Source of the DNA: Lachnospiraceae bacterium
GTDB taxonomy: Bacteria > Bacillota > Clostridia > Lachnospirales > Lachnospiraceae
Length of the DNA: 64,000 nucleotides
NCBI GenBank assembly: GCA_017442585.1
Contig: JAFRZM010000053.1
Span: forward strand, 27,012-91,011
Direction of reading: 5' to 3'
Both the position numbers and the translations under genes were made by a program. The stretch's first letter is position 1. Each line of letters starts with the position of its first letter. Shown in pieces: positions 7,931-43,205 of the stretch. A model generated the notes under the pieces. The model made no database searches. It was not told the DNA's origin and saw only the letters and a program-made list of their open reading frames with translations.

Positions 7931-7948
7931 GATTGGAATAATGATTTT

Positions 7949-7980: not shown

Positions 7981-8035
7981 CTTATCTTCTGATCGCTAGA
8001 AAGAGAAAAGATTTCAAACTAAAAGGAGAATTAAT

Positions 8036-9223: not shown

Positions 9224-9265
9224 TTTAAAATAATATTTTCATAAGAGTAATCTTAAGGAGTACAT

Positions 9266-11060: not shown

Positions 11061-11141
11061 GTTTACCCGATGCAACATTTTTAAAACCGCATCTGTATTA
11101 TTTGCAGAAGGGCGATAAGCCAGGTTTAAGGAGGAAACTTT

Positions 11142-12089: not shown

Positions 12090-12110
12090 TTCTTTAAAGT
12101 TAGGAACAAT

Positions 12111-12773: not shown

Positions 12774-12824
12774 GTGTTAGAATAATATAGATTATTTGTA
12801 TGCCTTTAAGCAGGAGTAATTGTT

Positions 12825-20443: not shown

Positions 20444-21568
20444 ATGGCACATATTAATTCAATAGAAATAAAAAGTTACAGAGGAATAAAAGCATTATCA
20501 GTTTCAGATTTTTCAAATATTAATATAGTTGTGGGAGACAACAATAGTGGAAAAACCTCTTTTCTAGAGGCCATTCAATTATTGTTTGCCGGTACTCAAC
20601 TGGGAACTTTGAAAAATATTATAAATCAACGAACTGTACTTAATCCTGACAAGAGTAGTTTTTATGTTTCGCTCACAAAAATGTTCAACAAGGAGCAAAG
20701 ACCGGATTCGATGGACTTTGAGATTTCTGCAGAAAGTAATAGTGGAATCCTACAGTTTCGTTTTATGGGGCGAGAAGGCAGTGTTTCGGGTGAAGAAGCA
20801 CTTCAAATGTCTGCTTTATCTCAGCGAGAAAAAATGCAGTATAAAAGGAATTCGATTATATTGCCGGAAAAGGCAAAAGTATTTATAGGGAATGTAGTCG
20901 CACAAACTGGAGAAGAAATTTCACAGCAGGAAGTAAGAAGTACATCTTTAGATAGTGGGCTTCCGGGGGCTTCTTTAAAGAAGGAAATTCTGTATATTTC
21001 GGCATTTGGACATCTTAGATATGATCTTTTACAGAATATTGTAGGTAATCCGGAATATAAAAAGCTGGCAGTTGATATTCTTGGACAATTTGAAACAGAA
21101 ATAGAGGATATATGTTATACCAAGGCAGATGATGGCTCTTATTTAGAAACGATTGTAGCTACGAGTGGGATAAATATGCCGCTTTCGGTATATGGCGATG
21201 GTATTAAGAAGATTTTGTATATACTTAATAAGCTTTTTGATTCCGCAGATTCAATACTGCTGATTGATGAAATTGAGACGGGGCTCCATAAGAAATATTA
21301 TGATATGTTGTTCCCTGTAATATTTGCTTTAGCTAGTAAGTTGAATGTTCAATTGTTTATTGCAACACATAGTATTGAGGCGATAGATGCTATACTTAAA
21401 TACGGAGATTACGACAATAAGAAAGAAGAGAAGGATCCGATTAAAGTCATTACATTAAAGAAAATTGAATCAAAAACCGGTAAAGGAAGCAACATAGTTG
21501 CTAGAAACGTTACAGGTAATTATGTATACGAAAATAGAAAAGTGTTTGAATATGAGGTGCGTCTATGA
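20444..21568 (+). CDS. ABC/SMC-like ATPase (AAA_15/AAA_21 type)
   Basis: Walker A GDNNSGKTS, signature LSVYGDG, Walker B ILLIDEIETGLH, H-loop IATHS. Confidence 0.9.
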   Translation: MAHINSIEIKSYRGIKALSVSDFSNINIVVGDNNSGKTSFLEAIQLLFAGTQLGTLKNIINQRTVLNPDKSSFYVSLTKMFNKEQRPDSMDFEISAESNSGILQFRFMGREGSVSGEEALQMSALSQREKMQYKRNSIILPEKAKVFIGNVVAQTGEEISQQEVRSTSLDSGLPGASLKKEILYISAFGHLRYDLLQNIVGNPEYKKLAVDILGQFETEIEDICYTKADDGSYLETIVATSGINMPLSVYGDGIKKILYILNKLFDSADSILLIDEIETGLHKKYYDMLFPVIFALASKLNVQLFIATHSIEAIDAILKYGDYDNKKEEKDPIKVITLKKIESKTGKGSNIVARNVTGNYVYENRKVFEYEVRL

Positions 21569-22302
21569 TTGAATTAGTACTTGTAGAAGGCGTATCAGAT
21601 GTTCAGCTGATAAGTTACTATATGCAGAGCGTATATGAGTGGAAGCATGTTAATGAAAATATACTTGGAATAACGGTATTGGATGCGCATGAACATATAG
21701 AAAATTTAACAAAAGGTGATAATGAACTTGTGTTATGCGGTGTTGGAGGAAATAGTAAATTTGCGTCGTTTGTGGAAAAACACCGTATAAATGCAATGAT
21801 TATTGAAAAAGAAATAGCATCATTTATGGTTGTGACGGATAGAGATAAAGAAAGCAATCTAAAGATGACAAGAAGAATTAATGCAGTATTTGAAAATATA
21901 ACATTCGAAGCAGGAAAATGGGTGAAAAATAAGATAGCGGATGGCTATGGCCAGGATAAGTTGGTTAATACTTACTTGCTAATTATCCCAGAAAATGAAA
22001 ATGGTGCATTGGAAAGTGTAATCATTAATGCATTGAAGGATATACCGGAAGAAAAAGAACTTATGCAAGAGGTAATTGACTTTATAGATAATGTAAAGAA
22101 TGATTTGGTTCCGGAATTATGTAAAATTAATAAATATAATAAGGCTGTTGTTGGAACGTTTTTCAGCGTTAGAAATCCGGAAAATGCAATGCGTTCTTTT
22201 GGAGCTTTCGTATCAAAGGTAGAGTGGTTAAAGTCGGAGTCACTTAAACAGATTTTTATGCCGCTCGGCTGTTTGGGTAAGGAAAAAACGATTAATAATT
22301 AA
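21565..22302 (+). CDS. TOPRIM-like (DUF3226/DUF4435-like) putative nuclease
   Basis: N-terminal LVEGVSD, DxD motif VVTDRD, later IIP...GALE; ATGA-coupled to the ATPase. Confidence 0.7.
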   Translation: MIELVLVEGVSDVQLISYYMQSVYEWKHVNENILGITVLDAHEHIENLTKGDNELVLCGVGGNSKFASFVEKHRINAMIIEKEIASFMVVTDRDKESNLKMTRRINAVFENITFEAGKWVKNKIADGYGQDKLVNTYLLIIPENENGALESVIINALKDIPEEKELMQEVIDFIDNVKNDLVPELCKINKYNKAVVGTFFSVRNPENAMRSFGAFVSKVEWLKSESLKQIFMPLGCLGKEKTINN

Positions 22303-26303: not shown

Positions 26304-26332
26304 TTGATATTTGTCCCCCTTTATAGTAAAAT
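26304..26332 (+). promoter_or_regulatory. Probable sigma-A promoter of the cca operon
   Basis: TTGATA, 17 bp, TAAAAT; back-to-back with the sRNA promoter. Confidence 0.6.
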
Positions 26333-26392: not shown

Positions 26393-27613
26393 ATGCACTT
26401 GCCGATAGATGTTAAAAATATCATAGAGCGTCTGGAACAAGCCGGCTACGAAGCATATGCCGTAGGCGGCTGCGTTCGTGACAGCTTGCTTAACGAAGAG
26501 CCCGGAGACTATGATATGACAACATCTGCATTACCATTTGAGGTAAAAGCGCTCTTCAAAAGAACTTTCGATACCGGAATAAAGCACGGCACGGTAACCG
26601 TACTTATGCCGGGAGGCACATATGAAGTTACGACCTACAGAGTAGATGGCGAATATGAAGACATGCGCCACCCTAAAGAAGTGACATTCACGAGAAACTT
26701 AAAAGACGACCTTTCAAGACGCGATTTCACAATAAACGCGATGGCATATAACGAGAAAGACGGCCTTATCGATTTATTTAACGGTAAGGAAGACCTTGAA
26801 AAAAGAGTTATCCGTTGTGTCGGAGATCCGATAAAAAGATTCTCCGAGGACGCGTTAAGAATGCTTCGCGCGGTAAGATTTTCCGCAAAACTTGGATTTT
26901 CAATAGAAAAAGATACACTTAATGCTATAAACGAATTGCACGAGAACTTAAAAGCCGTATCGTCCGAGCGAATCTACGTTGAATTTATAAAGACCGTACT
27001 TAGCGATAATCCGGATAACCTAAAAGTGGCCTACGAAACAGGCCTTTTACCGTTATTCCTCGATGAAGTGTCTCCGCTTTTTAAAGACGAAGAAGCTTTA
27101 AACGAAGCCTTTAGAAGGATGAAACAAGTCGATAAAGACCACATACTTCGCCTTGGAATAATGTTTTCGGAAGCTAATAAAAAGAAAAAGTTCTCACCGA
27201 AGACCGTATTAAAGCGCCTTAAAACAGACAGAGATACTTTTGAAGGCGTAGAAAAACTCGTAAACTTATCCGAGAAAGAACTTCCAACAACTGATTATGA
27301 GGTCAGAAGATATCTTGCGGATAACGGCCTTGATATGACAAAGCGTGTGCTTGCACTTATTTCTTCAATCGGAGAAAAAGAAAGCACCAAGTGCAAAGAA
27401 GTTCTAGAGCGAATAGACACAATACTTAAAAACAACGACTGCATAACCCTTAAAACCCTTGCGGTTACAGGAAACGACGTAATAACTTTAGGCGTTGAAA
27501 AAGGCACAAGAGTAGGAACAGTTTTAGAAGCATTATTTGATAGGGTGTTACAAGACCCTTCATTAAACAATAAAGATACATTAACTTCGATAGTAAAGAA
27601 GGAATTTTTGTAA
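26393..27613 (+). CDS. cca: CCA-adding tRNA nucleotidyltransferase (class II)
   Basis: VGGCVRD..DYD, DLSRRDFTINA, EDALRMLRAVRF, SERIYVEF. Confidence 0.92.
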   Translation: MHLPIDVKNIIERLEQAGYEAYAVGGCVRDSLLNEEPGDYDMTTSALPFEVKALFKRTFDTGIKHGTVTVLMPGGTYEVTTYRVDGEYEDMRHPKEVTFTRNLKDDLSRRDFTINAMAYNEKDGLIDLFNGKEDLEKRVIRCVGDPIKRFSEDALRMLRAVRFSAKLGFSIEKDTLNAINELHENLKAVSSERIYVEFIKTVLSDNPDNLKVAYETGLLPLFLDEVSPLFKDEEALNEAFRRMKQVDKDHILRLGIMFSEANKKKKFSPKTVLKRLKTDRDTFEGVEKLVNLSEKELPTTDYEVRRYLADNGLDMTKRVLALISSIGEKESTKCKEVLERIDTILKNNDCITLKTLAVTGNDVITLGVEKGTRVGTVLEALFDRVLQDPSLNNKDTLTSIVKKEFL

Positions 27614-27614
27614 G

Positions 27615-28649
27615 ATGGAAGATAAGAAGATAAGCGTCATCGTTCCGGTTTACAATGCTGCAAAGTATGTTCAAACCTGCGTTGACTCCATATTAAATCA
27701 GACATATACAAACCTCGAGCTTATCCTTGTGGACGACGGTTCAAAGGACGAATCGCCTGCACTTTTGGATGAGATAAAGAGTAAAGATCCTCGAGTAGTG
27801 GTAATTCATAAAGAAAACGGCGGCGTATCCGCTGCGAGAAACGACGGAATCGTTGCGTCTACAGGCGAGTACATTCATTTCATAGATTCCGACGACTGGC
27901 TTGATAAGACCTGCTATGAAGATATGATATCGCTCATGGTCAAAGAAGACGCAGACGTAGCGTATTTCGGATGGTCAAAGGACAATGTCTATAAGACCGC
28001 ATTCGTTCAGTCCAAGGAAGGCTTTACAGGAGTCGGAGGCCAAAGCGAGATATTAAAATATATGCTTTCACTCGTAGGTGTGGGCGGCGGCTATGTAAGC
28101 TACGGAAACTACGTATGGAATAAGATATATAAGAAAGCATCATTAAAGGATTGTAACGGTAACTTCGTGCTTTTCCCTACTGATGTAAACATTGCGGAAG
28201 ACGGATTATGGCTTGTAGAAGCCGCAAAGAACTTCAAGAAAGGCGTATTCAATAAGACACCTTATTATCATTACTATCAAAACCCTGATTCTGTAATGAA
28301 TACCAAGGAGAAGTATTTCAAGACACGCCTTGGGTCTGAGAGCGCTCACGTTAAAATGGTTAAAATCGTGGAAGCTTACAACAAGGAAATGGCCGACCTT
28401 CATAAAGAAGTGTGCAATAGCTTTTTCCTGTCTCATATTGACGGTGCGCCTGAGAAGGCCCCTGAGTTTATAGAGGCTGTATTTAATAATCTTATAGAAT
28501 TGAATGACGGAAAATGCCCGGCATCACTTGCAAAAAAATATGCGGCACTCCTTAACAACGTGCCGAAGGATGCGGGATTACTTAATAGAAAGTTAGTCAG
28601 AATGGCTGTTAAAGTCACGAAGAAAATCGATAAAAAGAGAAAAGGGTGA
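27615..28649 (+). CDS. Glycosyltransferase family 2
   Basis: ISVIVPVYNA, VDDGSKD, NGGVSAARN, FIDSDD. Confidence 0.95.
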   Translation: MEDKKISVIVPVYNAAKYVQTCVDSILNQTYTNLELILVDDGSKDESPALLDEIKSKDPRVVVIHKENGGVSAARNDGIVASTGEYIHFIDSDDWLDKTCYEDMISLMVKEDADVAYFGWSKDNVYKTAFVQSKEGFTGVGGQSEILKYMLSLVGVGGGYVSYGNYVWNKIYKKASLKDCNGNFVLFPTDVNIAEDGLWLVEAAKNFKKGVFNKTPYYHYYQNPDSVMNTKEKYFKTRLGSESAHVKMVKIVEAYNKEMADLHKEVCNSFFLSHIDGAPEKAPEFIEAVFNNLIELNDGKCPASLAKKYAALLNNVPKDAGLLNRKLVRMAVKVTKKIDKKRKG

Positions 28650-28653
28650 AATA

Positions 28654-29766
28654 ATGTCGGATAATCGTAAGACGATCGGAATCTTAACATTCCATCGTGC
28701 GATAAATTACGGTGCGCTTCTCCAGGCGTACGGCCTTCAGGAAGCGTTAAAAGGCTTAGGACAAAACGCAAAAGTAATAGACTACAGATGTCCTTTCGTT
28801 GAAAAAGCATATCGCTTAACATGGGGCCTTAATAAGAAGAAACTTAAAAGTTACATCGTAACCTTCAAAGGAATGAGCAAGGTAAAAGAGAAAAACCAAA
28901 TGTTTAGGGCTTTTGCCTCAAAACACTTAGACCTTTCGAAAGTCTACAACGCAAGCGATGTAAAACAAATCGAGAATGATTTCGACGAGATAATCACAGG
29001 TTCCGATCAGGTTTGGAACATGGATATAAGCGGAAACGACAGGAATTTCTTATTGGAGAGCCTTAAGGATTCGAAAAAGAAAAATTCCTACGCCGTATCA
29101 CTCGGAACATATAAATTAAGCGAGAAAGACGTAAACGACATAAAGGGCTTTGAAAGAATCTCACTTCGTGAGCCTGCAAGTGCGGCATACGTAAAGAGCC
29201 TCACGGGTCGTGATGATGTGCATGTTGATATCGATCCGACACTTTTGCTCAATCAGGAAAAATGGGAAGAGCTCGTAGGAAAAGAAGGCCCGGTGAAGGG
29301 TGACTACATTTTTATCTACTCTGTTCATCCGCAAAACCACATGATTGAGTATGCGAAAAAGCTTGCAAAAGAAAAGAACATGAAGGTCATCTACCTTCAT
29401 AACCGCATTAAGATGGATCTTAAGTTTAAGGATGTTACAATGCTTACGCACGTGACACCAGAAGACTTTTTGACACTTATACATAATGCTTCGTATGTTA
29501 TTACGAATTCGTTCCACGGAACGGTATTCTCGATAATCTTTAGAAAGCAGTTTTTGTCGGAGCTTACGACAAAGGGCGGATTCAATAACAGAGTTTACGA
29601 CCTTTTGACGGAGCTTGGAATAAGCCGCAGAATCTTGGAGCCTGTACGTAATGTAAACGACGGACTTACGATAGACGAGTCGATAGACTTCGACAGTGCA
29701 AATGAAAGATTAGAAGAATTGCGAAAGAAATCGTTGAAGTACCTTGAAACTATAATAGAAAAGTAG
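28654..29766 (+). CDS. Polysaccharide pyruvyl transferase family protein
   Basis: NYGALLQAYGL, GSDQVW, SLRE, DPTLLL, TNSFHGTVFS. Confidence 0.9.
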   Translation: MSDNRKTIGILTFHRAINYGALLQAYGLQEALKGLGQNAKVIDYRCPFVEKAYRLTWGLNKKKLKSYIVTFKGMSKVKEKNQMFRAFASKHLDLSKVYNASDVKQIENDFDEIITGSDQVWNMDISGNDRNFLLESLKDSKKKNSYAVSLGTYKLSEKDVNDIKGFERISLREPASAAYVKSLTGRDDVHVDIDPTLLLNQEKWEELVGKEGPVKGDYIFIYSVHPQNHMIEYAKKLAKEKNMKVIYLHNRIKMDLKFKDVTMLTHVTPEDFLTLIHNASYVITNSFHGTVFSIIFRKQFLSELTTKGGFNNRVYDLLTELGISRRILEPVRNVNDGLTIDESIDFDSANERLEELRKKSLKYLETIIEK

Positions 29767-29776
29767 GAGGAAGGAA

Positions 29777-31519
29777 ATGTATTCGAAGATTAAAAACGTC
29801 CAGTTTCTGGTTCAGTTATTGAAAGAGCACGGAGTTCACCATATGGTGTTATCCCCGGGCGCAAGAGATATACCGATCTCTCACTCTGTAGAGGAGGATC
29901 CTTTCTTTAAATGTTATTCCGTAGTTGATGAGCGTTCTGCAGCATACTTTGCAATCGGACTTTCTCAGCAGCTTGGAAATGAGATAGTTGCGATAGTTTG
30001 TACATCGTCTGTTGCAGCGTCAAACTATATGCCGGGTATAACGGAAGCGTTCTACTTAAAGGTGCCGCTTCTTGTAATTACTTGCGACAGAAACCCGAGA
30101 CTTCTCGGACAGATGGAAAATCAGATGATCGATCAGGTAGATATGTTCAAAAACTTCTGCAAGAAGTGCGTAAATCTTCCTTTAATCGAAGCACCTGAAG
30201 ATGACTGGTATTGCCAGCGTCTCGTAAATGAGGCAATTCTTGAAGTAAAGCATCACGGCATGGGACCTGTACAGATAAACGTTCCGATATCAGGCGGTAT
30301 CGGTATGTTCCAGGAAGAGCCGTTGCCGCCTGTTACAAAGATTGAGCGTCTTGAGTATATGCGTGATGATAACGCTTGGGAAGATAGAAAGAATAAACTT
30401 CGCGAAGCTAAGCGTATCATGGTTGTATGCGGACAGAGAACTCCTGTAACTGCAGAAGAATACGGTTACATGGAGCAGTTTGCGAAAAAGTACGACTGCG
30501 TTATCGCGACAGAGCGAATTTCAAACGTAGAGGTTGAAGGAAGTCTTAATATCTTTGGCGCAGCACAGGTTATGCCGCTTGAAAAATTCGATGAATTCAT
30601 TCCTGATATAGTAATTACAATCGGCGGAAACTTCGTATCACGTATAAAGGACCTTCTTCGCGCAAGATGCGGTAAGTTCGAGCACTGGTCGGTTGCGGAA
30701 GACGGAGTTATCTGCGACGTATTTAAGAGCCTTACAACTGTATTTGAATGTACACCGTATGACTTCTTTAAATACTTCGGCGAAGATGACGGCGAAGGTG
30801 TAGGAAATGACCTTATGTACTTCAAGAAGTGGGCTGAGTATGTTGAATTTACTAAGTTTCCGGATCTTGAGTATTCAAACTCATATGCAATTAAGAAGCT
30901 TGCAGAAAAGATGCCGGCTAATTCTTTGATGCACCTTGGAATTTTAAATGCGACACGTATCATGTCGAGCTGTATCGTTGCGCCAAACCAGATTTCTTAC
31001 AGCAATGTCGGAGCATTTGGTATCGACGGATCCATGTCGACATTTATGGGTCAGGCAGTTGCAAGCCCTGATAAGCTCGCATTCCTTGTAATAGGAGACT
31101 TAAGCTTCTTCTATGATATGAATGCATTACAGATTAAGCACGTAGGTAAAAACGCGAGAATTTTCCTTATCAATAACCACGGAGCAGCTGAGTTCCATTA
31201 CTTCATGGGACAAAAGCTCATACCTACAATTAACTGGCATATTGCTGCCGAGCATTCAACGGATGCGGAAGGCTGGGTTAAGAGCAGACACTTTAATTAC
31301 TTCAGCGCTCATAACAAAGAGGAATTTGATGCGAACCTTGACGCATTTATAAATCCTGATGCAGATTGTCCGCAGGTATTCGAAATCTTTACGGAAAAAG
31401 ATAAGGATGCGGATATCTTGAAGGCATTCTATGCAACCTTTAAGCCACAGAAGTCTACTATGGAAAAGGTTGAAAATAAAGTAGAGAAAGCGGTTAAAAA
31501 ATGGAATCCATTTCGTTAA
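29777..31519 (+). CDS. MenD-like thiamine-diphosphate-dependent enzyme
   Basis: SPGARD, catalytic Glu in VDERSAAYFAIG, CDR...ENQMIDQ, GIDG, ThDP motif GDLSFFYD...NNHG. Confidence 0.9.
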   Translation: MYSKIKNVQFLVQLLKEHGVHHMVLSPGARDIPISHSVEEDPFFKCYSVVDERSAAYFAIGLSQQLGNEIVAIVCTSSVAASNYMPGITEAFYLKVPLLVITCDRNPRLLGQMENQMIDQVDMFKNFCKKCVNLPLIEAPEDDWYCQRLVNEAILEVKHHGMGPVQINVPISGGIGMFQEEPLPPVTKIERLEYMRDDNAWEDRKNKLREAKRIMVVCGQRTPVTAEEYGYMEQFAKKYDCVIATERISNVEVEGSLNIFGAAQVMPLEKFDEFIPDIVITIGGNFVSRIKDLLRARCGKFEHWSVAEDGVICDVFKSLTTVFECTPYDFFKYFGEDDGEGVGNDLMYFKKWAEYVEFTKFPDLEYSNSYAIKKLAEKMPANSLMHLGILNATRIMSSCIVAPNQISYSNVGAFGIDGSMSTFMGQAVASPDKLAFLVIGDLSFFYDMNALQIKHVGKNARIFLINNHGAAEFHYFMGQKLIPTINWHIAAEHSTDAEGWVKSRHFNYFSAHNKEEFDANLDAFINPDADCPQVFEIFTEKDKDADILKAFYATFKPQKSTMEKVENKVEKAVKKWNPFR

Positions 31520-32349
31520 GTAACGGTAAAAATATACCGAAGGTGATGCTTGGTTCATTCCAGATGAATAAAGAATCCGATATGGAAGCCGTAGTTGAAG
31601 AAGCGATTAGCAAAGGCGTTTACGGATTCGATACGTCACCTAGTTATAAAACAGAGGAGTCGCTTGCGAGAGCCGTACATAAGGCTCTTTCAAAGCACAC
31701 CGATGTAAAAAGAGAAGATTTATTCATAGGATCAAAGATCGATTCGTGGATGATGATGGAAGGCAAAGGCGATATAAGAAAGTACGTAGAAGATGTACTT
31801 GAGAGGACAAAGCTCTCATATTTAGACCTTCTTTTAATCCACTGGCCACAGCCTGAATACCTCGTACAGACATATCTTTGTATGGAAAAGCTTTACGAAG
31901 AAGGCATGGTTAAGTCAATCGGTGTTTGTAATCTTAAGGTACGCCATTTTAATAAGCTTATAGAGGGCGGTGCGACAATTACACCGCACGTTGCACAAAA
32001 CGAGATTCATCCGTTTAATACGGAAGAAGAACTCGTTTCATACTGCAAGGAAAAGAATATAGTCGTTCAGGCGTATAGTCCGCTTTGTCGTATGATACCT
32101 GAGATTAAAAATGACGCAACGCTTAATATTTTAGCAATAAAGTACGGTGTATCTGTAGCACAGCTTATGCTTCGTTTCCATACACAGCGAGGACTTGTGC
32201 CGATAGTTAAGACATCAAGCCCTAAGCGCGTATCAGAGAATACAGACATATTTAACTTTACTATAGAAGAAGATGATATGAAGACGATATCCTTACTCGA
32301 CAGACACTTTAAGATGTTCTTAGAGTCAAGATGCTGTCCGGGATATTAA
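31501..32349 (+). CDS. Aldo/keto reductase
   Basis: Catalytic tetrad motifs FDTSPSY, SKI, LLIHWP; SIGVCN, QNEIHP, QAYSPL; overlaps the MenD-like stop. Confidence 0.93.
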   Translation: MESISLSNGKNIPKVMLGSFQMNKESDMEAVVEEAISKGVYGFDTSPSYKTEESLARAVHKALSKHTDVKREDLFIGSKIDSWMMMEGKGDIRKYVEDVLERTKLSYLDLLLIHWPQPEYLVQTYLCMEKLYEEGMVKSIGVCNLKVRHFNKLIEGGATITPHVAQNEIHPFNTEEELVSYCKEKNIVVQAYSPLCRMIPEIKNDATLNILAIKYGVSVAQLMLRFHTQRGLVPIVKTSSPKRVSENTDIFNFTIEEDDMKTISLLDRHFKMFLESRCCPGY

Positions 32350-32360
32350 GGAGGCGCGAT

Positions 32361-33113
32361 ATGAGAGGTTTAATAATAGCAGTTATCATATTGGCTGTGC
32401 TTATTTTGATTGCGCTTTTCCTTTGGCTTTCAAACAAAGCGTATTTTAAGTTTTTGCGTCACGATAAGCCGACAAGCTATTTTAAGGATTTAAGATATCG
32501 TAATGTAGAAGGAATAATAGTCGGAAACGGCGCGGTATTTAAGTATTTATATCCGAGACGTAATCAGCAAAAGATTTATATCTGCACGACCCACAGAAGG
32601 TCGCTTGATATGGATTTTGCGGCTTTAAAGACGTACTTTTCTCACGTAAAGGATGGCGGAACAGCCTATATTTACGCAGATTACGGCGACTTTAAGAAGT
32701 ATAAGGATTTACGTACTCCGGCGGATTTTGAAATAATACATCCGCATATCTTCCTTGAACGTCAGGAAAAGCCGAGAAAATTAAGAAACAAGTATCCGGT
32801 AATATTCTTCCCGGGATACACTTTTTCCTATCTTTTTATGCGTACGTTTAAGATGATGGGAATGTATAAGAAAGACCGCGCGTTATTAAGTAACGTAGCG
32901 TATAACGAGAAAGATGTTAAAGAAATGGGCGAGATGCTCTCCGAAATGGCAAGCTTTTGCCTCGAGCGTACGCTTAAACCGGTAATCCTTCTTATGGACA
33001 ATGGAGATATGCGCGTCAACAACGAATTAAAGGAAACGTGCGTAAGATCCGGCGAGGTAGAAGTTAAAATAATCAAGCGTTCGTCAGATTTTAAAGAGAT
33101 ATTATTTAAGTAA
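32361..33113 (+). CDS. Membrane-anchored hypothetical protein
   Basis: AAGGAGG SD before ATG 32361; one N-terminal TM helix. Confidence 0.75.
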   Translation: MRGLIIAVIILAVLILIALFLWLSNKAYFKFLRHDKPTSYFKDLRYRNVEGIIVGNGAVFKYLYPRRNQQKIYICTTHRRSLDMDFAALKTYFSHVKDGGTAYIYADYGDFKKYKDLRTPADFEIIHPHIFLERQEKPRKLRNKYPVIFFPGYTFSYLFMRTFKMMGMYKKDRALLSNVAYNEKDVKEMGEMLSEMASFCLERTLKPVILLMDNGDMRVNNELKETCVRSGEVEVKIIKRSSDFKEILFK

Positions 33114-33125: not shown

Positions 33126-34217
33126 ATGAAGCAAAGAAGCATGAAAAATGTATTGCTCTTAATAATGCTTACTATAGCTATGCTTGTTTGTGCGTGCGGA
33201 AACAACGGCCCGCGTGTCGAGTATGGCAACGGCAGTAATATCTTAAAGCCTAAGGGCGAGGGAGACGACGAGGAGTATACGGAAGAAGACCTTCCGACAC
33301 TTTATATATTTGAAAATGTAAACAAATCTGCGAATCTTTTAAGTTTCATGAAGATTGGTGGTTCGAATAGGGAATTTATTTATTCTTATTCGGGACAGAC
33401 GGCATTTGTTACGCGTTACGGTTCGTATATGACGGTTGACGGGCTTAATCCGGGCGATGTAGTAGAGCTTAAGATAAAAGAGTCTGAGCAGTTATGCCTT
33501 GAAGTTAAGGTCTCAGACCATGTATGGCTCTTTGACGATATCGATAAATACGATATCAATATGAGTAAGAACATGCTGACGGTCGGAAGCAACAAGTATT
33601 ATATAACGGAAAATGTGCCGGTATATAAAGGAAATGAAGCACTTACGGTAAACGACCTTACAGGAAATGAATCGATAGCTTTATACGGATATGATAAGAC
33701 GATTATTTCTGTAGTTATAACGACGGGACACGGAACGCTTGCTTTTACGCATACGGATGACTATGAGGGTGGATATTTCGTTCTCGGAAATGTCGCGGCG
33801 GCGGAGATTACGAAAGATCTTCGTATGAACGTAAAGTGCGGAACGTATCTTTTAATGGTATCCGCAAACGGCATGAGCGGTAGCATGCAGGTTACGATAG
33901 AGGACGGAAAGACAGCATTTATCAACCTTTCTTCGTTCGTAAAGAAGACGGAGAAGCGCGGCGAAGTAACCTTTATGGTATCGGTTAACGGTGCGAAGCT
34001 TACAATAAACGGTAAAAAGATAGATTATTCAAATCCGATATCGCTTAAGTACGGTGTATATAAGGTTGTATGTACTGCGGACGGATATGACGAGTGGGTG
34101 AGATACATCATAGTTAATTCGAAGACGGCATACATCGATATTAACCTCGATAAAACAGTCATTAGTAATGACGACGATGATGACTCGGGAACCGTCTCCG
34201 GAGACGAGGGAAATTAA
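33126..34217 (+). CDS. Lipoprotein with C-terminal PEGA-like domain
   Basis: Lipobox LVCACG; GAKLTING...L.YG.Y.V...ADGY..W pattern. Confidence 0.75.
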   Translation: MKQRSMKNVLLLIMLTIAMLVCACGNNGPRVEYGNGSNILKPKGEGDDEEYTEEDLPTLYIFENVNKSANLLSFMKIGGSNREFIYSYSGQTAFVTRYGSYMTVDGLNPGDVVELKIKESEQLCLEVKVSDHVWLFDDIDKYDINMSKNMLTVGSNKYYITENVPVYKGNEALTVNDLTGNESIALYGYDKTIISVVITTGHGTLAFTHTDDYEGGYFVLGNVAAAEITKDLRMNVKCGTYLLMVSANGMSGSMQVTIEDGKTAFINLSSFVKKTEKRGEVTFMVSVNGAKLTINGKKIDYSNPISLKYGVYKVVCTADGYDEWVRYIIVNSKTAYIDINLDKTVISNDDDDDSGTVSGDEGN

Positions 34218-34371: not shown

Positions 34372-34438
34372 TAAAGGGTGAGAGAAATCTCAGACAAAAA
34401 AATATCCCGTATTATTGAATACAAGGAGGAACTTAATA

Positions 34439-34720
34439 ATGAACAAAGCAGAATTAGTAGCAGTTATGTCAGATAAGGCTGGCATCACAAAGAAGCAGGC
34501 AGAGATCGCTTTAAAGGCTTTCACAGAGACAGTTGGTGTTGAATTAAAGAAGGGCCAGAAGATTCAGTTAGTAGGTTTCGGTACATTCGAAGTTGTTAAG
34601 AGAGCAGCTAGAACAGGTAGAAACCCTCAGACAGGTAAGGATATGAAGATTCCGGCATCAAAGGCTCCTAAGTTTAAACCAGGTAAGGCTTTAAAGGATA
34701 TCGTTAATTCTGGTAAGTAA
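34439..34720 (+). CDS. hup: DNA-binding protein HU
   Basis: MNKAELV...LVGFGTFEV..RAARTGRNPQTG..FKPGKALKD; AGGAGG SD. Confidence 0.98.
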   Translation: MNKAELVAVMSDKAGITKKQAEIALKAFTETVGVELKKGQKIQLVGFGTFEVVKRAARTGRNPQTGKDMKIPASKAPKFKPGKALKDIVNSGK

Positions 34721-34745
34721 TTTATTTACTATAACAAGAATTATG

Positions 34746-34771
34746 GGGACGTGCTTCGCACGTCCCTTTTT
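34746..34771 (+). terminator. Terminator after hup
   Basis: GGGACGTGC-ttc-GCACGTCCC followed by Ts. Confidence 0.88.
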
Positions 34772-39553: not shown

Positions 39554-39582
39554 AGGCAACCATTAGTGGTTGTCCTTTTTTT
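39554..39582 (+). terminator. Terminator-like hairpin ~100 bp upstream of the TetR-kinase gene
   Basis: GGCAACCA-ttag-TGGTTGTC followed by a T-run. Confidence 0.6.
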
Positions 39583-39680
39583 GTGATTTAATCGTGAAAG
39601 CGCTTGCGGGTGCAACATTTTTCCCCTATACTGATTTTAAAATCAATATTGAGCTGTTTTCTTTTCATGAGGGCAAAACA

Positions 39681-42600
39681 TTGGAAAACAAAAGAAAGAA
39701 TACCGGCAGCAGGACTAGAATCCTTAACGCTGCAATAAAAGAATTCGGAGAAAGAGGCTACACGAATGCGAAACTTTCGGATATTGCAAAGCGTGCGAAT
39801 GTGTCTTACGGACTTATTTCCGCACACTTTGGTTCGAAGGAAGAGCTTTTGCGGGCCTCTTTGCGCGTAGTAGACGAAAATCTTATATTCCCGGTGCGTG
39901 AAGGAGCAACTCTTCACGAGATATTGGACGGGCTTATTACCGCGCTTAAGGACATTGGTTATTATAAGCGAGATATGTTTGAGTTTCTTTACGCGGTTCT
40001 TGTTGGGAAAGATATTCCGGAACGTGTAATGAAGCTTTTGTCGGCAGGATTTAAGGATACCAGATTCTTTGTTGATGGAGAAAACGATAAAAAGTTTGAT
40101 TTTAAAGCATGCAATACATTTTTAAAAGCCGTAATGGAAGTAATGCATGCGGAGTTTATAACGGGTCGCACATTCTCAGATAATATGGTTCTTTTGTCAC
40201 TCCTTAATGCTGATAAGATACAGGATAGAAGCGAAGTCGCGGTTAAAAAGGAGTTAAGCAATACTTATAAGGAATTAAATGAATACACAGCCGTAACTAA
40301 CCTTCTTGCGAAAAAGTACATATCAATTATGTATGTAAATATAGAAGACGGCTCAACGGAATTTGTGCGTATAAATAGGACACTTGGCGACCAACCGTTA
40401 AAAAAAGGCAATTTCTTTGAGCGTCTAGAAGAATATCTTAAGGAATTTTCGGCTAAAGAAGACCGCGCACGAATACTTAAATTCGTAAATAAGAAAAATA
40501 TACTTAAAGGTCTTAAGGAAAAAGAAACTATTGCAGAGTCTTACCAGGACCTTTCGACAGGAACACCGTTCCACAACCTTATCCAGATAACCAGAGGAAT
40601 GGATGAAGGGCATATAGGCGTTTCTTTCCTTGATATTGACGATACGGTACGAGCAGACAGAGAACGTCAGGCGGAAATTGCGGTAGAAAAGAGGGAAAAG
40701 GCAGAACTTATACGAGATGCGGAGCTTTACAGACAGGCCGTTCTTTTGCATGCGGATACATACTGGAAGGTGAATGTTTCGAAGAATAAGACCGTAACGC
40801 AACCTGTATTAGGAAGGGAAGCGACATTTGAAAGGAAGAAAGGCATATATGACGACAAACTTGACGATTATGACGGAGCATTGTCTTCATATGCATATGA
40901 TTATGTTGATAAAGCAGAGCGTAGAGGCTTTATCGAAGCGATGGGTAAGGACGGTTTAACTGCGGCATATGAAGATGGATATACAATGCCTGAGATAACG
41001 GTAAAGATTTTGTTTGAGGGCAAGGTACTGTATAGGCGTTTTCTTGCATATCTTTCCGAGTTTGAAGAAGACGGTGATATTTATGCCATGATCGTAGTAT
41101 ATAACGTTACCGATCAGTTTAAGGCTCTCCGCGAGGTTGAGGAGCGAGAAAATGCAATAAAGCAAAGCGTTGAGACTCTTTTCCAGGTTACTAATCCGGA
41201 TGAGGCATTAAGACGTATACTTTTAACCATCTTGGATTATTATAAAGCTGATAGAACCAGAATATATGAGTTCAGTAAAGATGGGGAATATGCATCGCTT
41301 ACTTATGAATGGTGTAAAAAAGGTGTAAGGCGCCTAAAACAAGAGTCCCAAAGGATGCCGATGAGGTATTTTTCAAAATGGCTTTCGGCTTTTGAGAAAA
41401 ATTCGGATATTGTTATAAAATCGATTCCTAATGGCATGGATAAACGAACGGCTATGTATAAGCGCTTTACTGCACATGGGATTGAAAGCATAATGGTTAC
41501 GCCGTTTATGTCGGACGGTGTGCCGGTTGGATTTATCGGTGTCGATAATGCAAAAGAACATCTGGAAGATTTCCATGTAATGAAGATTAATGCGATTCTT
41601 GCGTATAGTGAGATCTTACGCCGTAAACAGACCGACGAAGAGCACGTCGTATCGGAACACATTTATCAAAACTTCCAGTCGGTATATTATGCAGACTTTA
41701 TTACAGATTATGTCTGTGCGTATAAGACGGATGACCGATTAAAGGAAAGTATTGCGGAAAGCAGAAGATACTCGATGTTTATTCGTGACTATATTGCAAA
41801 TATCATAGCACCGAGTAATAGCGACAGATGTAGCGTAATGCTTAATCCGCATTACATTATGGAACAGTTTAAAAACACGGATACGGTAGAAGTGCCTTAT
41901 CTTTCAAACACCGGCCAGCAGATAGCGTTTAAGTTTATTAAAGCTAATGATGAAGGAACCGTAGCGGTTATTTGCGAGATTGATAATACTGCGATTGTTG
42001 AAAGCGAGCGTCAAAATCAAGAACGCCTTGAGGAAGCAAGAAAGCAGGCGGAAGCCGCAAACGAAGCAAAGTCAAGATTCCTTTTCAACATGTCGCATGA
42101 CATAAGAACGCCTATGAATGCGATAATGGGCTTTACAGAGCTTGCTGAGGAAAAAGCGACAGACCCTGAAGCTGTAAAAGGATATTTAGGTAAGGTGCGA
42201 GAAGCAAATGAATATCTCATGTCGTTGCTTGATGATGTACTTGATATGGCACGTATCGAAGCCGGCAAACTTAAGGTTGAAGAGACAATTTCTGACATAA
42301 GAACCAACGTAACGGAGATTGTAAGTATCTTAAAACCGATGGCGGAAGAAAAGGATCTTAAGTTTGGATTCGATATTTCCGGAGTAAAGCATTATAATAT
42401 ATGGGAAGATAAACTTCGTGTAAGGCAGATATTGATAAATGTTTTAACCAATTCTTTTAAGTATTCTTACGACAAAGGAACGGTATCTTTTACGATAAAA
42501 GAGGAACCGTCCGAAAAAGAAGGATATGCAAGATATTGTTTTATCATAAAGGATAACGGTATCGGTATGAGCGAAGAATTCCTGTCGAAAATTTATAATC

Positions 42601-43205
42601 AGTTTGAGCGAGCCGACAATTCCGCCATTGTTAAAGCAAAGGGCACGGGCCTCGGAATGGCTATCGTTAAGAGACTTGTCGATATATTGAACGGTACCAT
42701 TGATATAAAGAGTAAGGAAAGTTTTGGTACGACAGTTACGATATGTTTTGATTTTAGGATAGCGCAAAAGACTGAGAAGGAATATAATAAACAGGTAGAG
42801 GAATCTTTGACAGTTGATTCATTTAAAGATAAACGAGTTCTTCTTGTTGAAGATAATTCTTTAAATCGCGAAATCATGGAGAATATTCTTCGTAAGTTCA
42901 AGATGAAGGTGCGTTATGCCGAAAACGGTGAAGAAGCAATCAAAGTTCTTAATGAATCTAGAAGATGTAGCTTTGACCTCGTTTTGATGGACATTCAGAT
43001 GCCAAAGATGAATGGATACGAGGCGACGCGGTTTATAAGAAAGATGTCCGATAAGGATAAGGCAGGCGTGCCGATTATTGCGATGACTGCCAATGCCTTT
43101 GAGGAGGATAAACGCGAAGCGTTAAATGCAGGTATGAACGATCATATCGCAAAGCCTATAAGCTCAAAGGAACTGATACAGGCGATGCATCGCGTGTTGG
43201 ATTAG
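39681..43205 (+). CDS. Hybrid histidine kinase: TetR HTH, PAS-like, GAF, HisKA, HATPase, receiver
   Basis: RILNAAIKEFGERGY..LSDIAKRANVSYGLISAHFGSKEEL (TetR); FIGVDN (GAF); MSHDIRTPMN; GTGLG; LLVEDN..LMDIQMP..HIAKP. Start at TTG 39681 is inferred. Confidence 0.9.
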   Translation: MENKRKNTGSRTRILNAAIKEFGERGYTNAKLSDIAKRANVSYGLISAHFGSKEELLRASLRVVDENLIFPVREGATLHEILDGLITALKDIGYYKRDMFEFLYAVLVGKDIPERVMKLLSAGFKDTRFFVDGENDKKFDFKACNTFLKAVMEVMHAEFITGRTFSDNMVLLSLLNADKIQDRSEVAVKKELSNTYKELNEYTAVTNLLAKKYISIMYVNIEDGSTEFVRINRTLGDQPLKKGNFFERLEEYLKEFSAKEDRARILKFVNKKNILKGLKEKETIAESYQDLSTGTPFHNLIQITRGMDEGHIGVSFLDIDDTVRADRERQAEIAVEKREKAELIRDAELYRQAVLLHADTYWKVNVSKNKTVTQPVLGREATFERKKGIYDDKLDDYDGALSSYAYDYVDKAERRGFIEAMGKDGLTAAYEDGYTMPEITVKILFEGKVLYRRFLAYLSEFEEDGDIYAMIVVYNVTDQFKALREVEERENAIKQSVETLFQVTNPDEALRRILLTILDYYKADRTRIYEFSKDGEYASLTYEWCKKGVRRLKQESQRMPMRYFSKWLSAFEKNSDIVIKSIPNGMDKRTAMYKRFTAHGIESIMVTPFMSDGVPVGFIGVDNAKEHLEDFHVMKINAILAYSEILRRKQTDEEHVVSEHIYQNFQSVYYADFITDYVCAYKTDDRLKESIAESRRYSMFIRDYIANIIAPSNSDRCSVMLNPHYIMEQFKNTDTVEVPYLSNTGQQIAFKFIKANDEGTVAVICEIDNTAIVESERQNQERLEEARKQAEAANEAKSRFLFNMSHDIRTPMNAIMGFTELAEEKATDPEAVKGYLGKVREANEYLMSLLDDVLDMARIEAGKLKVEETISDIRTNVTEIVSILKPMAEEKDLKFGFDISGVKHYNIWEDKLRVRQILINVLTNSFKYSYDKGTVSFTIKEEPSEKEGYARYCFIIKDNGIGMSEEFLSKIYNQFERADNSAIVKAKGTGLGMAIVKRLVDILNGTIDIKSKESFGTTVTICFDFRIAQKTEKEYNKQVEESLTVDSFKDKRVLLVEDNSLNREIMENILRKFKMKVRYAENGEEAIKVLNESRRCSFDLVLMDIQMPKMNGYEATRFIRKMSDKDKAGVPIIAMTANAFEEDKREALNAGMNDHIAKPISSKELIQAMHRVLD

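What the first reader, a model, noticed from the sequence alone, without database searches (positions are those of the whole stretch)
27615..33113. GT2 - pyruvyltransferase - MenD-like - aldo/keto reductase operon: candidate pathway for a carbon-extended ether modification of a cell-surface glycan
Seen: five tightly packed or overlapping genes (GT2, polysaccharide pyruvyl transferase, MenD-like ThDP enzyme, AKR, membrane-anchored hypothetical). No other men gene and no wzx/wzy/priming transferase lies in the window. Established: PS-pyruvyl transferases use PEP; MenD catalyses a Stetter 1,4-addition of a ThDP-activated aldehyde to an alpha,beta-unsaturated carboxylate; AKRs reduce ketones. 2,4-dihydroxypentanoic acid 2-ethers have been reported on Providencia alcalifaciens O-polysaccharides (recalled, verify). 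Inference: the transferase makes a sugar enolpyruvyl ether (an acrylate), the MenD-like enzyme adds an acyl unit to its beta-carbon to give a 4-oxo acid ether, and the AKR reduces it to a 2,4-dihydroxy-acid ether. That would be a three-step route to a rare non-sugar glycan substituent, acting on a polysaccharide assembled elsewhere.
Basis: partly seen in the sequence, partly recalled or inferred. Interest (0 to 1): 0.85.

Follow-up and report, generated by a model that had tools for sequence, protein, structure and literature searches.

The report
MenD-like enzyme in glycan-decorating cassette
A gene that databases label as the vitamin-K2 enzyme MenD sits here in a five-gene insert with a sugar transferase, a pyruvyl transferase and a reductase; the same enzyme trio recurs in cell-surface sugar loci across many bacterial phyla and probably builds an unusual hydroxy-acid side group on a cell-wall polymer.

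Summary
Window 27615-33113 encodes GT2, a PF04230 pyruvyl transferase (PvT), a MenD-like ThDP enzyme, an aldo-keto reductase and a membrane-anchored unknown protein. Congeners without them have cca next to the downstream gene, so the five genes are one gain/loss unit.

This is not menaquinone synthesis. The 92%-complete genome has no menB, no menA and no chorismate-binding enzyme.

The MenD-like protein belongs to a sister clade of true Bacteroidota MenD.
- Of 44 clade members, 38 have a PvT within 3.5 kb, 28 of them adjacent or fused.
- 39 have a ketoreductase within 1.5 kb (classical SDR, extended SDR or AKR).
- Of 38 true MenD genes, none has a PvT nearby and one has a reductase.
- PvT::MenD-like fusions arose twice.

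The window enzyme keeps the ThDP motifs and the acceptor-site arginines. It has replaced the 2-oxoglutarate-binding Arg (V411) and Ile (E472).

The closest precedent is megapolipeptin: the PvT/ThDP pair MgpK/MgpL is proposed to give a 2-hydroxy-4-oxoheptanedioic acid 2-ether.

Best reading: PEP-derived ether, ThDP-dependent C-C extension, then ketoreduction, on a teichoic-acid-like polymer made elsewhere. The gene association is shown. The chemistry is inferred.

The parts
27615..28649 (+). GT2 glycosyltransferase, first gene of the cassette. It probably adds the sugar that is then decorated.
   Evidence: PF00535, 133 bits. The DxD-type motif FIDSDD is visible in the translation. The start lies 1 nt after the cca stop. 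A GT2 orthologue sits directly upstream of the MenD-like gene in L085 and L004.
28654..29766 (+). Polysaccharide pyruvyl transferase family protein (PF04230), presumed to use PEP.
   Evidence: PF04230, 115 bits against a cut-off of 25.3; only a weak CsaB match, 25.7 bits. A PvT is adjacent or fused to the MenD-like gene in 28 of 44 related loci.
29777..31519 (+). MenD-like ThDP enzyme of the glycan-associated sister clade. Proposed to form a C-C bond by a Stetter-type addition.
   Evidence: TIGR00173, 256.8 against a cut-off of 244.2. Best PDB hits are MenD structures at about 1e-37 to 1e-39. E52 and the motif G440-D441...N466-N467 are intact. R30, R105, R289 and R394 are kept, while V411 replaces BsMenD R428 and E472 replaces I489. 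It falls in the PvT-associated clade, SH-aLRT 98. It is 92% identical in a congener whose flanking genes are 52-57% identical.
31501..32349 (+). Aldo-keto reductase, proposed to reduce the 4-oxo group of the product.
   Evidence: PF00248, 148 bits, DkgA-like, 184 bits. The catalytic tetrad D44, Y49, K79, H114 was read from the translation. It overlaps the MenD-like gene by 19 nt. In other loci the same position is occupied by a classical SDR or an extended SDR.
32361..33113 (+). Membrane-anchored protein of unknown function (alternative start 32331), last gene of the cassette.
   Evidence: No Pfam or NCBIfam family. Homologues occur only next to the AKR-type cassettes (window, L085, L004, congeners). 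The AF2 model has mean pLDDT 84, with an N-terminal helix at residues 2-35 and an alpha/beta domain. There is no significant PDB fold match, best E 0.019.
26393..27613 (+). cca (CCA tRNA nucleotidyltransferase). A core flanking gene, not part of the cassette, but probably the head of the transcription unit.
   Evidence: NF009814, 331 bits. A promoter-like site lies at 26304-26332. In congeners lacking the cassette, cca is followed directly by the Hyp7 homologue.
33126..34217 (+). Lipoprotein-like core gene (Hyp7, weak PEGA match). Not part of the cassette.
   Evidence: It is present next to cca in four congeners without the cassette. In L099 the gap to cca is about 58 bp. Only sub-threshold PEGA and CarboxypepD_reg matches were found.
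34745..34767 (+). First strong terminator-like hairpin downstream, after the HU gene. Likely end of the transcription unit.
   Evidence: 10-bp stem with 7 GC pairs followed by a T-run. HU at 34415-34720 is identified by PF00216.

Best explanation
The five genes form an accessory glycan-decorating cassette. It is inserted between cca and a core lipoprotein gene in a small Lachnospiraceae-like genome.

Proposed route:
1. GT2 adds a sugar to a lipid-linked cell-wall glycopolymer in the cytoplasm. The polymer is probably the teichoic-acid-type one encoded on contig C40.
2. The PF04230 transferase uses PEP to put a pyruvate-derived unit on one sugar hydroxyl as an enolpyruvyl ether.
3. The MenD-like ThDP enzyme decarboxylates a 2-oxo acid and adds the resulting acyl anion equivalent to the beta-carbon of that acrylate (Stetter-type 1,4-addition). 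This gives a 2-O-linked 4-oxo acid. In this subclade the donor is most likely pyruvate rather than 2-oxoglutarate.
4. The AKR reduces the 4-oxo group with NAD(P)H.

The end product would be a sugar ether of a 2,4-dihydroxy acid, of the 2,4-dihydroxypentanoate type.

What is shown: gene content, cassette boundaries, absence of a menaquinone pathway, clade separation from true MenD, conserved linkage and fusion with PvT and reductases, and remodelling of the donor pocket.

What is inferred: every chemical step, the order of steps, the donor, the acceptor sugar and the target polymer. The role of the fifth, membrane-anchored protein is unknown.
For: 1. Not menaquinone. The own genome has no menB, no menA and no Chorismate_bind protein, so it has no isochorismate.

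2. Cassette unit. Congeners lacking it have cca directly followed by Hyp7. It is present in 4 of 13 species of the genus and in none of 28 other genera sampled.

3. Phylogeny. A glycan-associated clade of 43 rows is separated from true Bacteroidota MenD, with SH-aLRT 98 on both sides. The true MenD in L022 lies in a menF-menD-menB-menC-menE operon.

4. Linkage.
- Of 44 clade members, 38 have a PvT within 3.5 kb, 28 of them adjacent or fused.
- 39 have a reductase within 1.5 kb, 36 of them adjacent; 34 have both.
- Of 38 true MenD genes, none has a PvT nearby and one has a reductase.

5. The reductase is replaced non-orthologously. It is a classical SDR in Bifidobacterium and most loci, an extended SDR in Hydrogenophaga, Parapedobacter, SAR324 and R. 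albus 7, and an AKR here. That argues for a generic carbonyl reduction after the ThDP step.

6. Two independent PvT(N-terminal)::MenD-like(C-terminal) fusions exist.

7. Active site, mapped on BsMenD (2x7j).
- R428, which mainly binds 2-oxoglutarate, becomes V411. I489, which contacts the succinyl chain, becomes E472.
- The acceptor-side residues R32, R106, K299 and R409 are kept as R30, R105, R289 and R394 (roles from PMC2914249).
- Acceptor-side residues differ between subclades (R/R, S/K, T/Q). That fits varied sugar-bound acceptors better than one universal acceptor.

8. Chemical precedent. Megapolipeptin A carries 2-hydroxy-4-oxoheptanedioic acid ether-linked through C2. Its cluster encodes a PvT (MgpK) and a ThDP lyase (MgpL) proposed to make it (PMC11411415; PMC13291983).

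9. A reduced C5 version exists as an orphan glycan substituent: 2,4-dihydroxypentanoic acid 2-ethers in P. alcalifaciens O31 (PMC10609480).

10. The AKR catalytic tetrad is intact. All proposed enzymes lack signal peptides, which fits cytoplasmic tailoring.

11. A TagG/H-type ABC transporter, TagF-like transferases, a PvT and the priming transferase lie together on C40. In L085 the orthologous cassette lies beside a GT2-TagF fusion.
Against: - No enzyme of this clade has been assayed.
- No PF04230 enzyme is known to release an enolpyruvyl ether. All characterised members form ketals, and their mechanism is described as unexplored (PMC10435577).
- PvTs linked to MenD-like genes are not a distinct lineage. 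They mix with ordinary PvTs in the tree, so nothing in the sequence marks them as ether-forming.
- An alpha-alkoxyacrylate is a poorer Michael acceptor than isochorismate.
- The megapolipeptin authors favour a different order of steps and also mention a non-enzymatic lipid-peroxidation origin.
- Some clade members have no adjacent reductase (L007, L012, L081), and L021 has neither partner.
- No carrier could be tied to a solved glycan structure.
- The assignment of pyruvate as donor rests on two substitutions only.
- The genome is a 92%-complete draft, so absences are not absolute.
Confidence: 0.5

Rival explanations
1. Same end product, reverse order. The MenD-like enzyme first adds the acyl unit to free PEP, giving a 2-phospho-4-oxo acid. 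This is the '1,5-dicarboxy-3-oxopentyl phosphate' route proposed for megapolipeptin. The reductase may act next. The PF04230 enzyme then transfers the whole unit to the sugar hydroxyl with loss of phosphate, possibly by elimination followed by oxa-Michael addition.
For: It is proposed in the literature for MgpK/MgpL (PMC11411415). PEP is itself an alpha,beta-unsaturated carboxylate. The arginine-rich acceptor pocket (R30, R105, R289, R394) could bind phosphate and carboxylate. The fusions and adjacency fit either order.
Against: A universal PEP acceptor predicts an invariant acceptor pocket, yet the R32/R106 equivalents vary between subclades (R/R, S/K, T/Q). PF04230 chemistry as understood needs the enol phosphate double bond. 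A closely related PvT (ChtnH) uses plain PEP to make a cyclic acetal.
Confidence: 0.17
2. YerE/YerF-like chemistry. The ThDP enzyme performs a 1,2-carboligation of an activated aldehyde onto a keto- or aldehydo-sugar. The reductase reduces the new ketone. The pyruvyl transferase then ketalises the resulting diol, or acts independently, giving a branched or chain-extended sugar.
For: ThDP enzyme plus reductase is the known logic for branched-chain sugars such as yersiniose (from my own knowledge). MenD is reported to do 1,2-additions to aldehydes in vitro (from my own knowledge, and covered in the review cited). The sequence carboligation, reduction to a diol, then ketal would also use all three enzymes in turn.
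Against: The conserved module, and this five-gene cassette in particular, has no enzyme that would generate a keto-sugar, such as a dehydratase or oxidase. The enzyme descends from the one ThDP family specialised for 1,4-addition and keeps its acceptor arginines. The only structure-backed precedent for a PvT/MenD-like pair is an ether-linked 4-oxo acid.
Confidence: 0.1
3. The genes are neighbours only because glycan loci collect tailoring enzymes. The PvT makes an ordinary pyruvate ketal, and the MenD-like enzyme and reductase make an unrelated small molecule or modify a different site.
For: PvT genes are common in glycan loci. This genome has two more. The MenD-linked PvTs are phylogenetically unremarkable.
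Against: Linkage is 38 of 44 against 0 of 38. There are two independent gene fusions. The trio persists through changes of gene order and across at least 8 phyla. PvT and MenD-like identities are correlated, r = 0.56.
Confidence: 0.06
4. It is a genuine MenD (SEPHCHC synthase) serving menaquinone or another isochorismate-derived pathway.
For: It scores just above the TIGR00173 cut-off and is annotated as MenD in public records.
Against: The genome has no menB, menA or any chorismate-binding enzyme. The 2-oxoglutarate-binding Arg is lost. The protein lies in a separate clade from men-operon enzymes. It sits in an accessory glycan cassette.
Confidence: 0.01

Closest known systems
MgpK / MgpL of the megapolipeptin gene cluster (Paraburkholderia megapolitana)
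   Same: A PF04230 'polysaccharide pyruvyl transferase' is paired with a MenD/SEPHCHC-synthase-like ThDP enzyme. The isolated product carries a 2-hydroxy-4-oxo-dicarboxylic acid ether-linked through C2 to an alcohol (PMC11411415; PMC13291983). That is the kind of group expected from adding a ThDP-bound acyl unit to a PEP-derived C3 unit.
   Different: That system decorates a lipid omega-1 hydroxyl in a PKS-NRPS-PUFA natural product. No reductase is assigned, so the 4-oxo group remains, and the donor must be 2-oxoglutarate (C7 product). Here the pair sits in a glycan cassette with a GT2 and a ketoreductase, and the 2-oxoglutarate-binding Arg is replaced. The Mgp roles are proposals, not assays. 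I could not obtain the Mgp sequences to compare them.
MenD, SEPHCHC synthase (EC 2.2.1.9; TIGR00173; PDB 2X7J, 3LQ1/9E9B, 7TIN, 3HWX)
   Same: Same fold and domain order. The ThDP-activating Glu and the GDL...NN metal/ThDP motif are present. The acceptor-side residues R32, R106, K299 and R409 are conserved. Identity is 36-41% to Bacteroidota men-operon MenD and about 27-30% to Firmicute MenD. The natural MenD acceptor, isochorismate, is itself an enolpyruvyl ether.
   Different: R428 becomes V and I489 becomes E in the donor pocket. There are no men genes and no isochorismate in the genome. It is a sister clade with PvT and reductase neighbours rather than menF/B/C/E.
Ketal-pyruvyltransferases CsaB / Pvg1p (PF04230)
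   Same: Same Pfam family, and presumably the same PEP donor.
   Different: The characterised members bridge two hydroxyls as a ketal. Here an ether intermediate that is extended by a partner enzyme is proposed. The CsaB equivalog model matches only weakly, 25.7 bits against a cut-off of 213.
YerE / YerF (yersiniose branched-chain sugar synthesis)
   Same: A ThDP-dependent C-C bond-forming enzyme followed by a reductase in a glycan pathway (from my own knowledge).
   Different: YerE is an acetolactate-synthase-type flavoenzyme that does a 1,2-addition to a nucleotide keto-sugar. The present enzyme is MenD-derived, has a PvT partner, and its module has no enzyme that generates a keto-sugar.
2,4-dihydroxypentanoic acid 2-ethers of Providencia alcalifaciens O31 O-antigen
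   Same: This is the structure predicted if the donor is pyruvate and the 4-oxo group is reduced (PMC10609480, citing Shashkov et al. 2008).
   Different: Only the chemical structure is known. Its genes are unknown to me, and no Providencia sequence could be examined here.

Membership tests
MenD / SEPHCHC synthase (TIGR00173) | Scores above the curated equivalog cut-off | tested here: met
   256.8 bits against a cut-off of 244.2, so only marginally above.
MenD / SEPHCHC synthase (TIGR00173) | ThDP machinery: activating Glu and the GD(L/G)-x(24-27)-NN motif | tested here: met
   E52 in VDERSA. G440-D441-L-S...N466-N467.
MenD / SEPHCHC synthase (TIGR00173) | 2-Oxoglutarate pocket: BsMenD Arg428 and Ile489, strictly conserved in MenD (PMC2914249) | tested here: not met
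   V411 and E472 occupy the aligned positions. The same change is seen across the glycan clade, while men-operon enzymes keep NRG and IF.
MenD / SEPHCHC synthase (TIGR00173) | Isochorismate-side basic residues (BsMenD R32, R106, K299, R409) | tested here: met
   R30, R105, R289 and R394. They are lost in other subclades of the glycan clade.
MenD / SEPHCHC synthase (TIGR00173) | Pathway context: isochorismate synthase and menB/menA/menC/menE in the genome | tested here: not met
   No Chorismate_bind, menB or menA hit in the own genome (92% complete), while the control genomes ring. menH, menC and menE were not searched separately.
MenD / SEPHCHC synthase (TIGR00173) | Phylogenetic placement with men-operon enzymes | tested here: not met
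   It lies in a separate clade of 43 rows, SH-aLRT 98. L022, from the other clade, sits in a menF-D-B-C-E operon.
PvT + MenD-like tailoring pair (MgpK/MgpL type) | A PF04230 gene and a MenD-like gene in one cluster | tested here: met
   Adjacent with a 10-nt gap in the window. Adjacent or fused in 28 of 44 relatives.
PvT + MenD-like tailoring pair (MgpK/MgpL type) | Product is a 2-hydroxy-4-oxo (or 4-hydroxy) acid ether-linked through C2 | not testable with these tools
   Needs NMR/MS of the glycan or an enzyme assay. The structure is known only for megapolipeptin.
PvT + MenD-like tailoring pair (MgpK/MgpL type) | Sequence relatedness to MgpL / MgpK themselves | not tested
Polysaccharide pyruvyl transferase (PF04230) | Pfam model above the gathering score over its full length | tested here: met
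   115 bits against 25.3, profile positions 1-274 of 280.
Polysaccharide pyruvyl transferase (PF04230) | Forms a pyruvate ketal from PEP | not testable with these tools
   There is no sequence match to a solved PvT. The family's mechanism is unexplored.
Aldo-keto reductase (PF00248) | Pfam hit and catalytic tetrad Asp-Tyr-Lys-His | tested here: met
   148 bits. D44, Y49, K79 and H114 were read from the translation.
YerE/YerF-type branched-sugar system | ALS-type ThDP/FAD enzyme plus a keto-sugar nucleotide source (dehydratase) in the cluster | tested here: not met
   The enzyme is MenD-type, with ALS models scoring 51 bits or less. The five-gene cassette contains no dehydratase or oxidase.

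The most novel reading that the evidence does not exclude
A large, horizontally mobile family of MenD-derived 'glycan Stetterases' exists. It has thousands of members in gut Firmicutes, Bifidobacterium, Coriobacteriia, Bacteroidota, Verrucomicrobiota, Proteobacteria and candidate phyla.

These enzymes would work with, or be fused to, a PEP-dependent PF04230 transferase and a ketoreductase. They would form a C-C bond on a sugar-bound, PEP-derived unit. Subclade-specific donor and acceptor pockets would then yield a series of C5-C7 hydroxy- or oxo-acid ethers on surface glycans.

This would explain the orphan 2,4-dihydroxypentanoic acid ethers of Providencia. It would also add ThDP-dependent carboligation to the repertoire of post-glycosylation tailoring.
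Probability: 0.4. Interest if true: 0.85.

Novelty: new variant of a known kind. Interest (0 to 1): 0.72.

Why it matters
- **Annotation.** Thousands of genes are annotated as the menaquinone enzyme MenD or as 'thiamine pyrophosphate-binding protein', many in bacteria that make no menaquinone. If the reading is right they would be re-assigned to surface-glycan tailoring, which corrects a systematic error that distorts vitamin-K2 pathway predictions in gut microbiome studies.
- **Chemistry.** It would add a C-C bond-forming, ThDP-dependent step to glycan decoration. That would give a biosynthetic route to rare acidic ether substituents whose origin is unknown.
- **Biology.** Such charged side groups shape phage receptors, immune recognition and cell-wall protein anchoring in gut and rumen commensals.
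- **Testability.** Cultured carriers exist: Ruminococcus albus 7, Eisenbergiella tayi, Collinsella aerofaciens, Paraeggerthella hongkongensis and a Bifidobacterium isolate.

Tried and rejected
1. True MenD function was rejected: there are no men or isochorismate genes, the donor pocket is altered, and the protein sits in a separate clade.

2. Hyp7 (33126-34217) as part of the operon's function was rejected. It is a core gene present next to cca in congeners without the cassette.

3. Identifying Hyp6 failed. It has no Pfam or NCBIfam hit, and the word-based search found only 6 homologues. The AF2 model is confident, but Foldseek against the PDB gave nothing significant (best E 0.019, TM 0.33 or less; a faint SGNH-esterase resemblance only).

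4. I looked for a PvT lineage specific to MenD-like partners, which could have marked an ether-forming subtype. None was found; the partners are polyphyletic.

5. I looked for a solved PvT structure by sequence and found none.

6. I tried to link the module to an organism with a solved glycan structure.
   - The Providencia O31 gene cluster is not in the open literature searched.
   - The plasmid search gave R. albus 7 but no structure.
   - A homologue search with a proteobacterial member returned Psychrobacter, Marinobacterium, Stutzerimonas and Runella, with no Providencia among the best 120.

7. Literature searches that combined pyruvyl transferase with MenD or SEPHCHC and polysaccharide or glycosyltransferase terms found no description of the module in glycans.

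9. Recent horizontal transfer as the cause of the 92% identity of the MenD-like gene between congeners was considered and set aside. Its neighbours GT2 (68%), PvT (73%) and Hyp6 (62%) diverge normally, which points to strong constraint on this one protein.

Full report
**Observation.** Window 27615-33113 holds five co-directional genes.
- GT2, 27615-28649: PF00535.
- Polysaccharide pyruvyl transferase (PvT), 28654-29766: PF04230, 115 bits.
- MenD-like ThDP enzyme, 29777-31519: TIGR00173, 256.8 bits against a cut-off of 244.2.
- Aldo-keto reductase, 31501-32349: PF00248, DkgA-like.
- A protein with no family, 32331-33113. Its homologues begin at M11, so the likely start is 32361.

Gaps are 1 to 11 nt or 19-nt overlaps. 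A promoter-like site precedes the upstream cca gene. The first strong terminator follows the HU gene at 34745-34767, so the cassette sits inside a cca-to-hup transcription unit.

**Cassette boundaries.** Within the genus, 4 of 13 species carry the MenD-like gene. None of 28 other genera sampled does. In four congeners without it, cca is followed by the homologue of the gene at 33126-34217; in L099 the gap is about 58 bp. Gene order then continues HU, DivIC, TilS, Hpt, FtsH as in the window.

In the congener that has the cassette, identities are CCA 56%, GT2 68%, PvT 73%, MenD-like 92%, AKR 80%, Hyp6 62%, Hyp7 55% and TilS 52%. The ThDP enzyme is under unusually strong constraint.

**Not menaquinone.** The own assembly is 1.7 Mb and 92% complete. 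It has a single MenD-like gene and no menB, no menA and no chorismate-binding enzyme of any kind, while the control genomes ring. Without isochorismate the canonical MenD reaction cannot occur.

**A conserved module.** Relatives of the MenD-like protein from 80 species-representative genomes, plus loci found through identical proteins, were examined. A maximum-likelihood tree splits them into two groups with SH-aLRT 98 on both sides.
- True Bacteroidota MenD. L022, for example, lies in menF-menD-menB-menC-menE.
- A second clade found in polysaccharide loci of Bacillota, Actinomycetota (Bifidobacterium, Collinsella, Paraeggerthella), Bacteroidota, Verrucomicrobiota, Kiritimatiellota, Pseudomonadota, Omnitrophota and others.

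Iterated HMM searches of the neighbourhoods gave these counts.

| Group | n | PvT within 3.5 kb | PvT adjacent or fused | Reductase within 1.5 kb | Reductase adjacent | Both |
|---|---|---|---|---|---|---|
| Glycan clade | 44 | 38 | 28 | 39 | 36 | 34 |
| True MenD | 38 | 0 | 0 | 1 | 1 | 0 |

Gene order varies: PvT-MenDL-SDR, SDR-MenDL-PvT, and PvT-flippase-MenDL-reductase all occur. Four proteins are PvT(N-terminal)::MenD-like(C-terminal) fusions, and they stem from two separate events.

The reductase is a classical SDR in most loci, for example Bifidobacterium with Alg14-Alg13-PvT-MenDL-SDR-GT4 beside a Wzx. It is an extended SDR in Hydrogenophaga, Parapedobacter, SAR324 and on plasmid pRUMAL01 of Ruminococcus albus 7. 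It is an AKR in the window's own subclade: window, L085, L004 and L075. Non-orthologous replacement of the reductase argues that a plain carbonyl reduction follows the ThDP step.

A search with a proteobacterial member returned 8000 of 8000 scored candidates at E ≤ 1e-50, so the family is very large.

**Active site.** The window protein was aligned to B. subtilis MenD (2x7j, chain numbering +24).

| BsMenD residue | Window residue | Status |
|---|---|---|
| Activating Glu | E52 | kept |
| GD...NN motif | G440-D441...N466-N467 | kept |
| R32 | R30 | kept |
| R106 | R105 | kept |
| K299 | R289 | kept as basic |
| R409 | R394 | kept |
| F490 | F473 | kept |
| R428 | V411 | changed |
| I489 | E472 | changed |
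| L493 | F476 | changed |

Dawson et al. showed that R428 mainly binds 2-oxoglutarate. I489 contacts the aliphatic part of the succinyl-ThDP intermediate. R32 and R106 recognise isochorismate (PMC2914249). The donor pocket is therefore remodelled, with a cation removed and an anion added, while the acceptor side is retained.

Across the glycan clade the pattern differs by subclade.
- Basal members keep NRG and I/L.
- The window group has N(V/I)G with (A/S/E)EF.
- Other groups additionally change the acceptor-side pair to S/K or T/Q.

Fries et al. had noticed MenD homologues with Gln or Lys at this Arg and speculated on unexplored substrates, without genomic context (PMC6618250). The same genome's other first-stage note, e1-5232025 on the missing arginine, is thus confirmed.

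**Precedent.** Megapolipeptin A contains 2-hydroxy-4-oxoheptanedioic acid joined through C-2 to the omega-1 oxygen of the lipid, shown by an HMBC correlation between Adhda-19 and Hoha-2. Its cluster encodes a 'polysaccharide pyruvyl transferase' MgpK and a ThDP lyase MgpL. These are proposed to make it via 1,5-dicarboxy-3-oxopentyl phosphate (PMC11411415).

A related PvT, ChtnH, 72.5% similar, instead makes a pyruvate cyclic acetal on a 1,3-diol in a cluster that lacks the ThDP enzyme (PMC13291983).

A 2-O-linked 4-oxoheptanedioate is what results from adding succinic-semialdehyde-ThDP (from 2-oxoglutarate) to the beta-carbon of a PEP-derived acrylate. The C5, reduced analogue is known as an orphan substituent of Providencia alcalifaciens O31: 2,4-dihydroxypentanoic acid 2-ether on Man O-4 (PMC10609480).

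**Most likely mechanism.** GT2 adds the acceptor sugar to a lipid-linked polymer in the cytoplasm. PvT installs a PEP-derived unit on one hydroxyl. The MenD-like enzyme decarboxylates a 2-oxo acid and adds the acyl unit 1,4 to it; pyruvate is favoured here because the 2-oxoglutarate carboxylate binder is gone. The AKR reduces the 4-oxo group.

Variation of the acceptor-side residues between subclades fits sugar-bound acceptors better than a universal PEP acceptor. I therefore rank 'PvT first' above the order proposed for Mgp, but both lead to the same product class.

The target polymer is probably made elsewhere. The only priming transferase lies on contig C40, beside a TagG/H-type ABC transporter, three TagF-like glycerophosphotransferases (one fused to a GT2) and another PvT. 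In L085 the orthologous GT2-MenDL-AKR-Hyp cassette lies directly beside a GT2-TagF fusion and the orthologue of that C40 PvT.

**Caveats.**
- No member of the clade has been assayed.
- All characterised PF04230 enzymes make ketals, and their mechanism is unexplored.
- MenD-linked PvTs are not a separate lineage.
- Some loci lack the reductase or, rarely, both partners.
- The fifth protein remains unexplained despite a confident model.
- No carrier could be tied to a solved glycan.

**Novelty.** The open literature searched describes the PvT/MenD-like pair only as a proposal in one lipopeptide pathway. It contains nothing on glycans. Several earlier notes of this scan reached the same reading in other genomes. 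They are not independent evidence, but their central claim of conserved linkage was re-tested here from scratch.

I classify the finding as a new variant of a known kind: MenD-type Stetter chemistry and the Mgp-type pair, recruited together with a ketoreductase to glycan tailoring.

Noticed in passing
window 20444-22302: An AAA_15/AAA_21 ATPase (PF13175, PF13304) is followed, with overlapping stop and start, by a DUF3226 protein. They lie in the most AT-rich part of the window (GC 0.34-0.36). This looks like a small defence-type island upstream of the cassette.
   Followed up: partly
own genome (G000), whole assembly: No Chorismate_bind (PF00425) protein was found at all, so TrpE, PabB and isochorismate synthase are all absent. 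This suggests tryptophan and folate-precursor auxotrophy in this 1.7-Mb organism, within the limit of 92% completeness.
   Followed up: no
L004 (Eubacterium sp. MAG) 750-13464: Two complete modules lie in tandem on one contig. The first is GT2-GT2-PvT-MenDL-SDR. The second is GT2-PvT-MenDL-AKR-Hyp6-like-GT2. The two MenD-like copies belong to different subclades.
   Followed up: partly
L108 = NC_014824.1 350679-356209 (Ruminococcus albus 7 plasmid pRUMAL01): A cultured type strain carries GT2-PvT-flippase-MenD-like-NAD epimerase-family reductase-acyltransferase on a 420-kb mobilizable plasmid, next to LicD genes. This is a convenient experimental system.
   Followed up: partly
L030 versus L028: A contig labelled 'uncultured Lachnospiraceae' (L030) carries a MenD nearly identical to one from an uncultured Bacteroides (L028), with branch lengths 0.002 and 0.004. 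This is probably a binning error in the public MAG.
   Followed up: no
window 39570-43205: A 1211-aa protein combines an N-terminal TetR_N domain with HisKA, HATPase_c and a receiver domain. That confirms the domain content of another first-stage note on this window.
   Followed up: partly
L106 = G000:C40:32001-52000: A teichoic-acid-type locus: polysaccharide deacetylase, TagG/H-like ABC transporter, PvT, two TagF-like genes, a GT2-TagF fusion, a 1427-aa ORF that was not examined, a Bac_transf priming transferase and an Mbeg1-like protein.
   Followed up: partly
PMC4616057 (Klebsiella cps survey): Klebsiella K8, K22, K37 and K66 carry pyruvyltransferase genes although their capsules are reported as non-pyruvylated. 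From memory, K22 and K37 contain 4-O-(1-carboxyethyl)-glucuronic acid. If so, this would be a second hint that PF04230 enzymes can make ether-type products. It needs checking.
   Followed up: no
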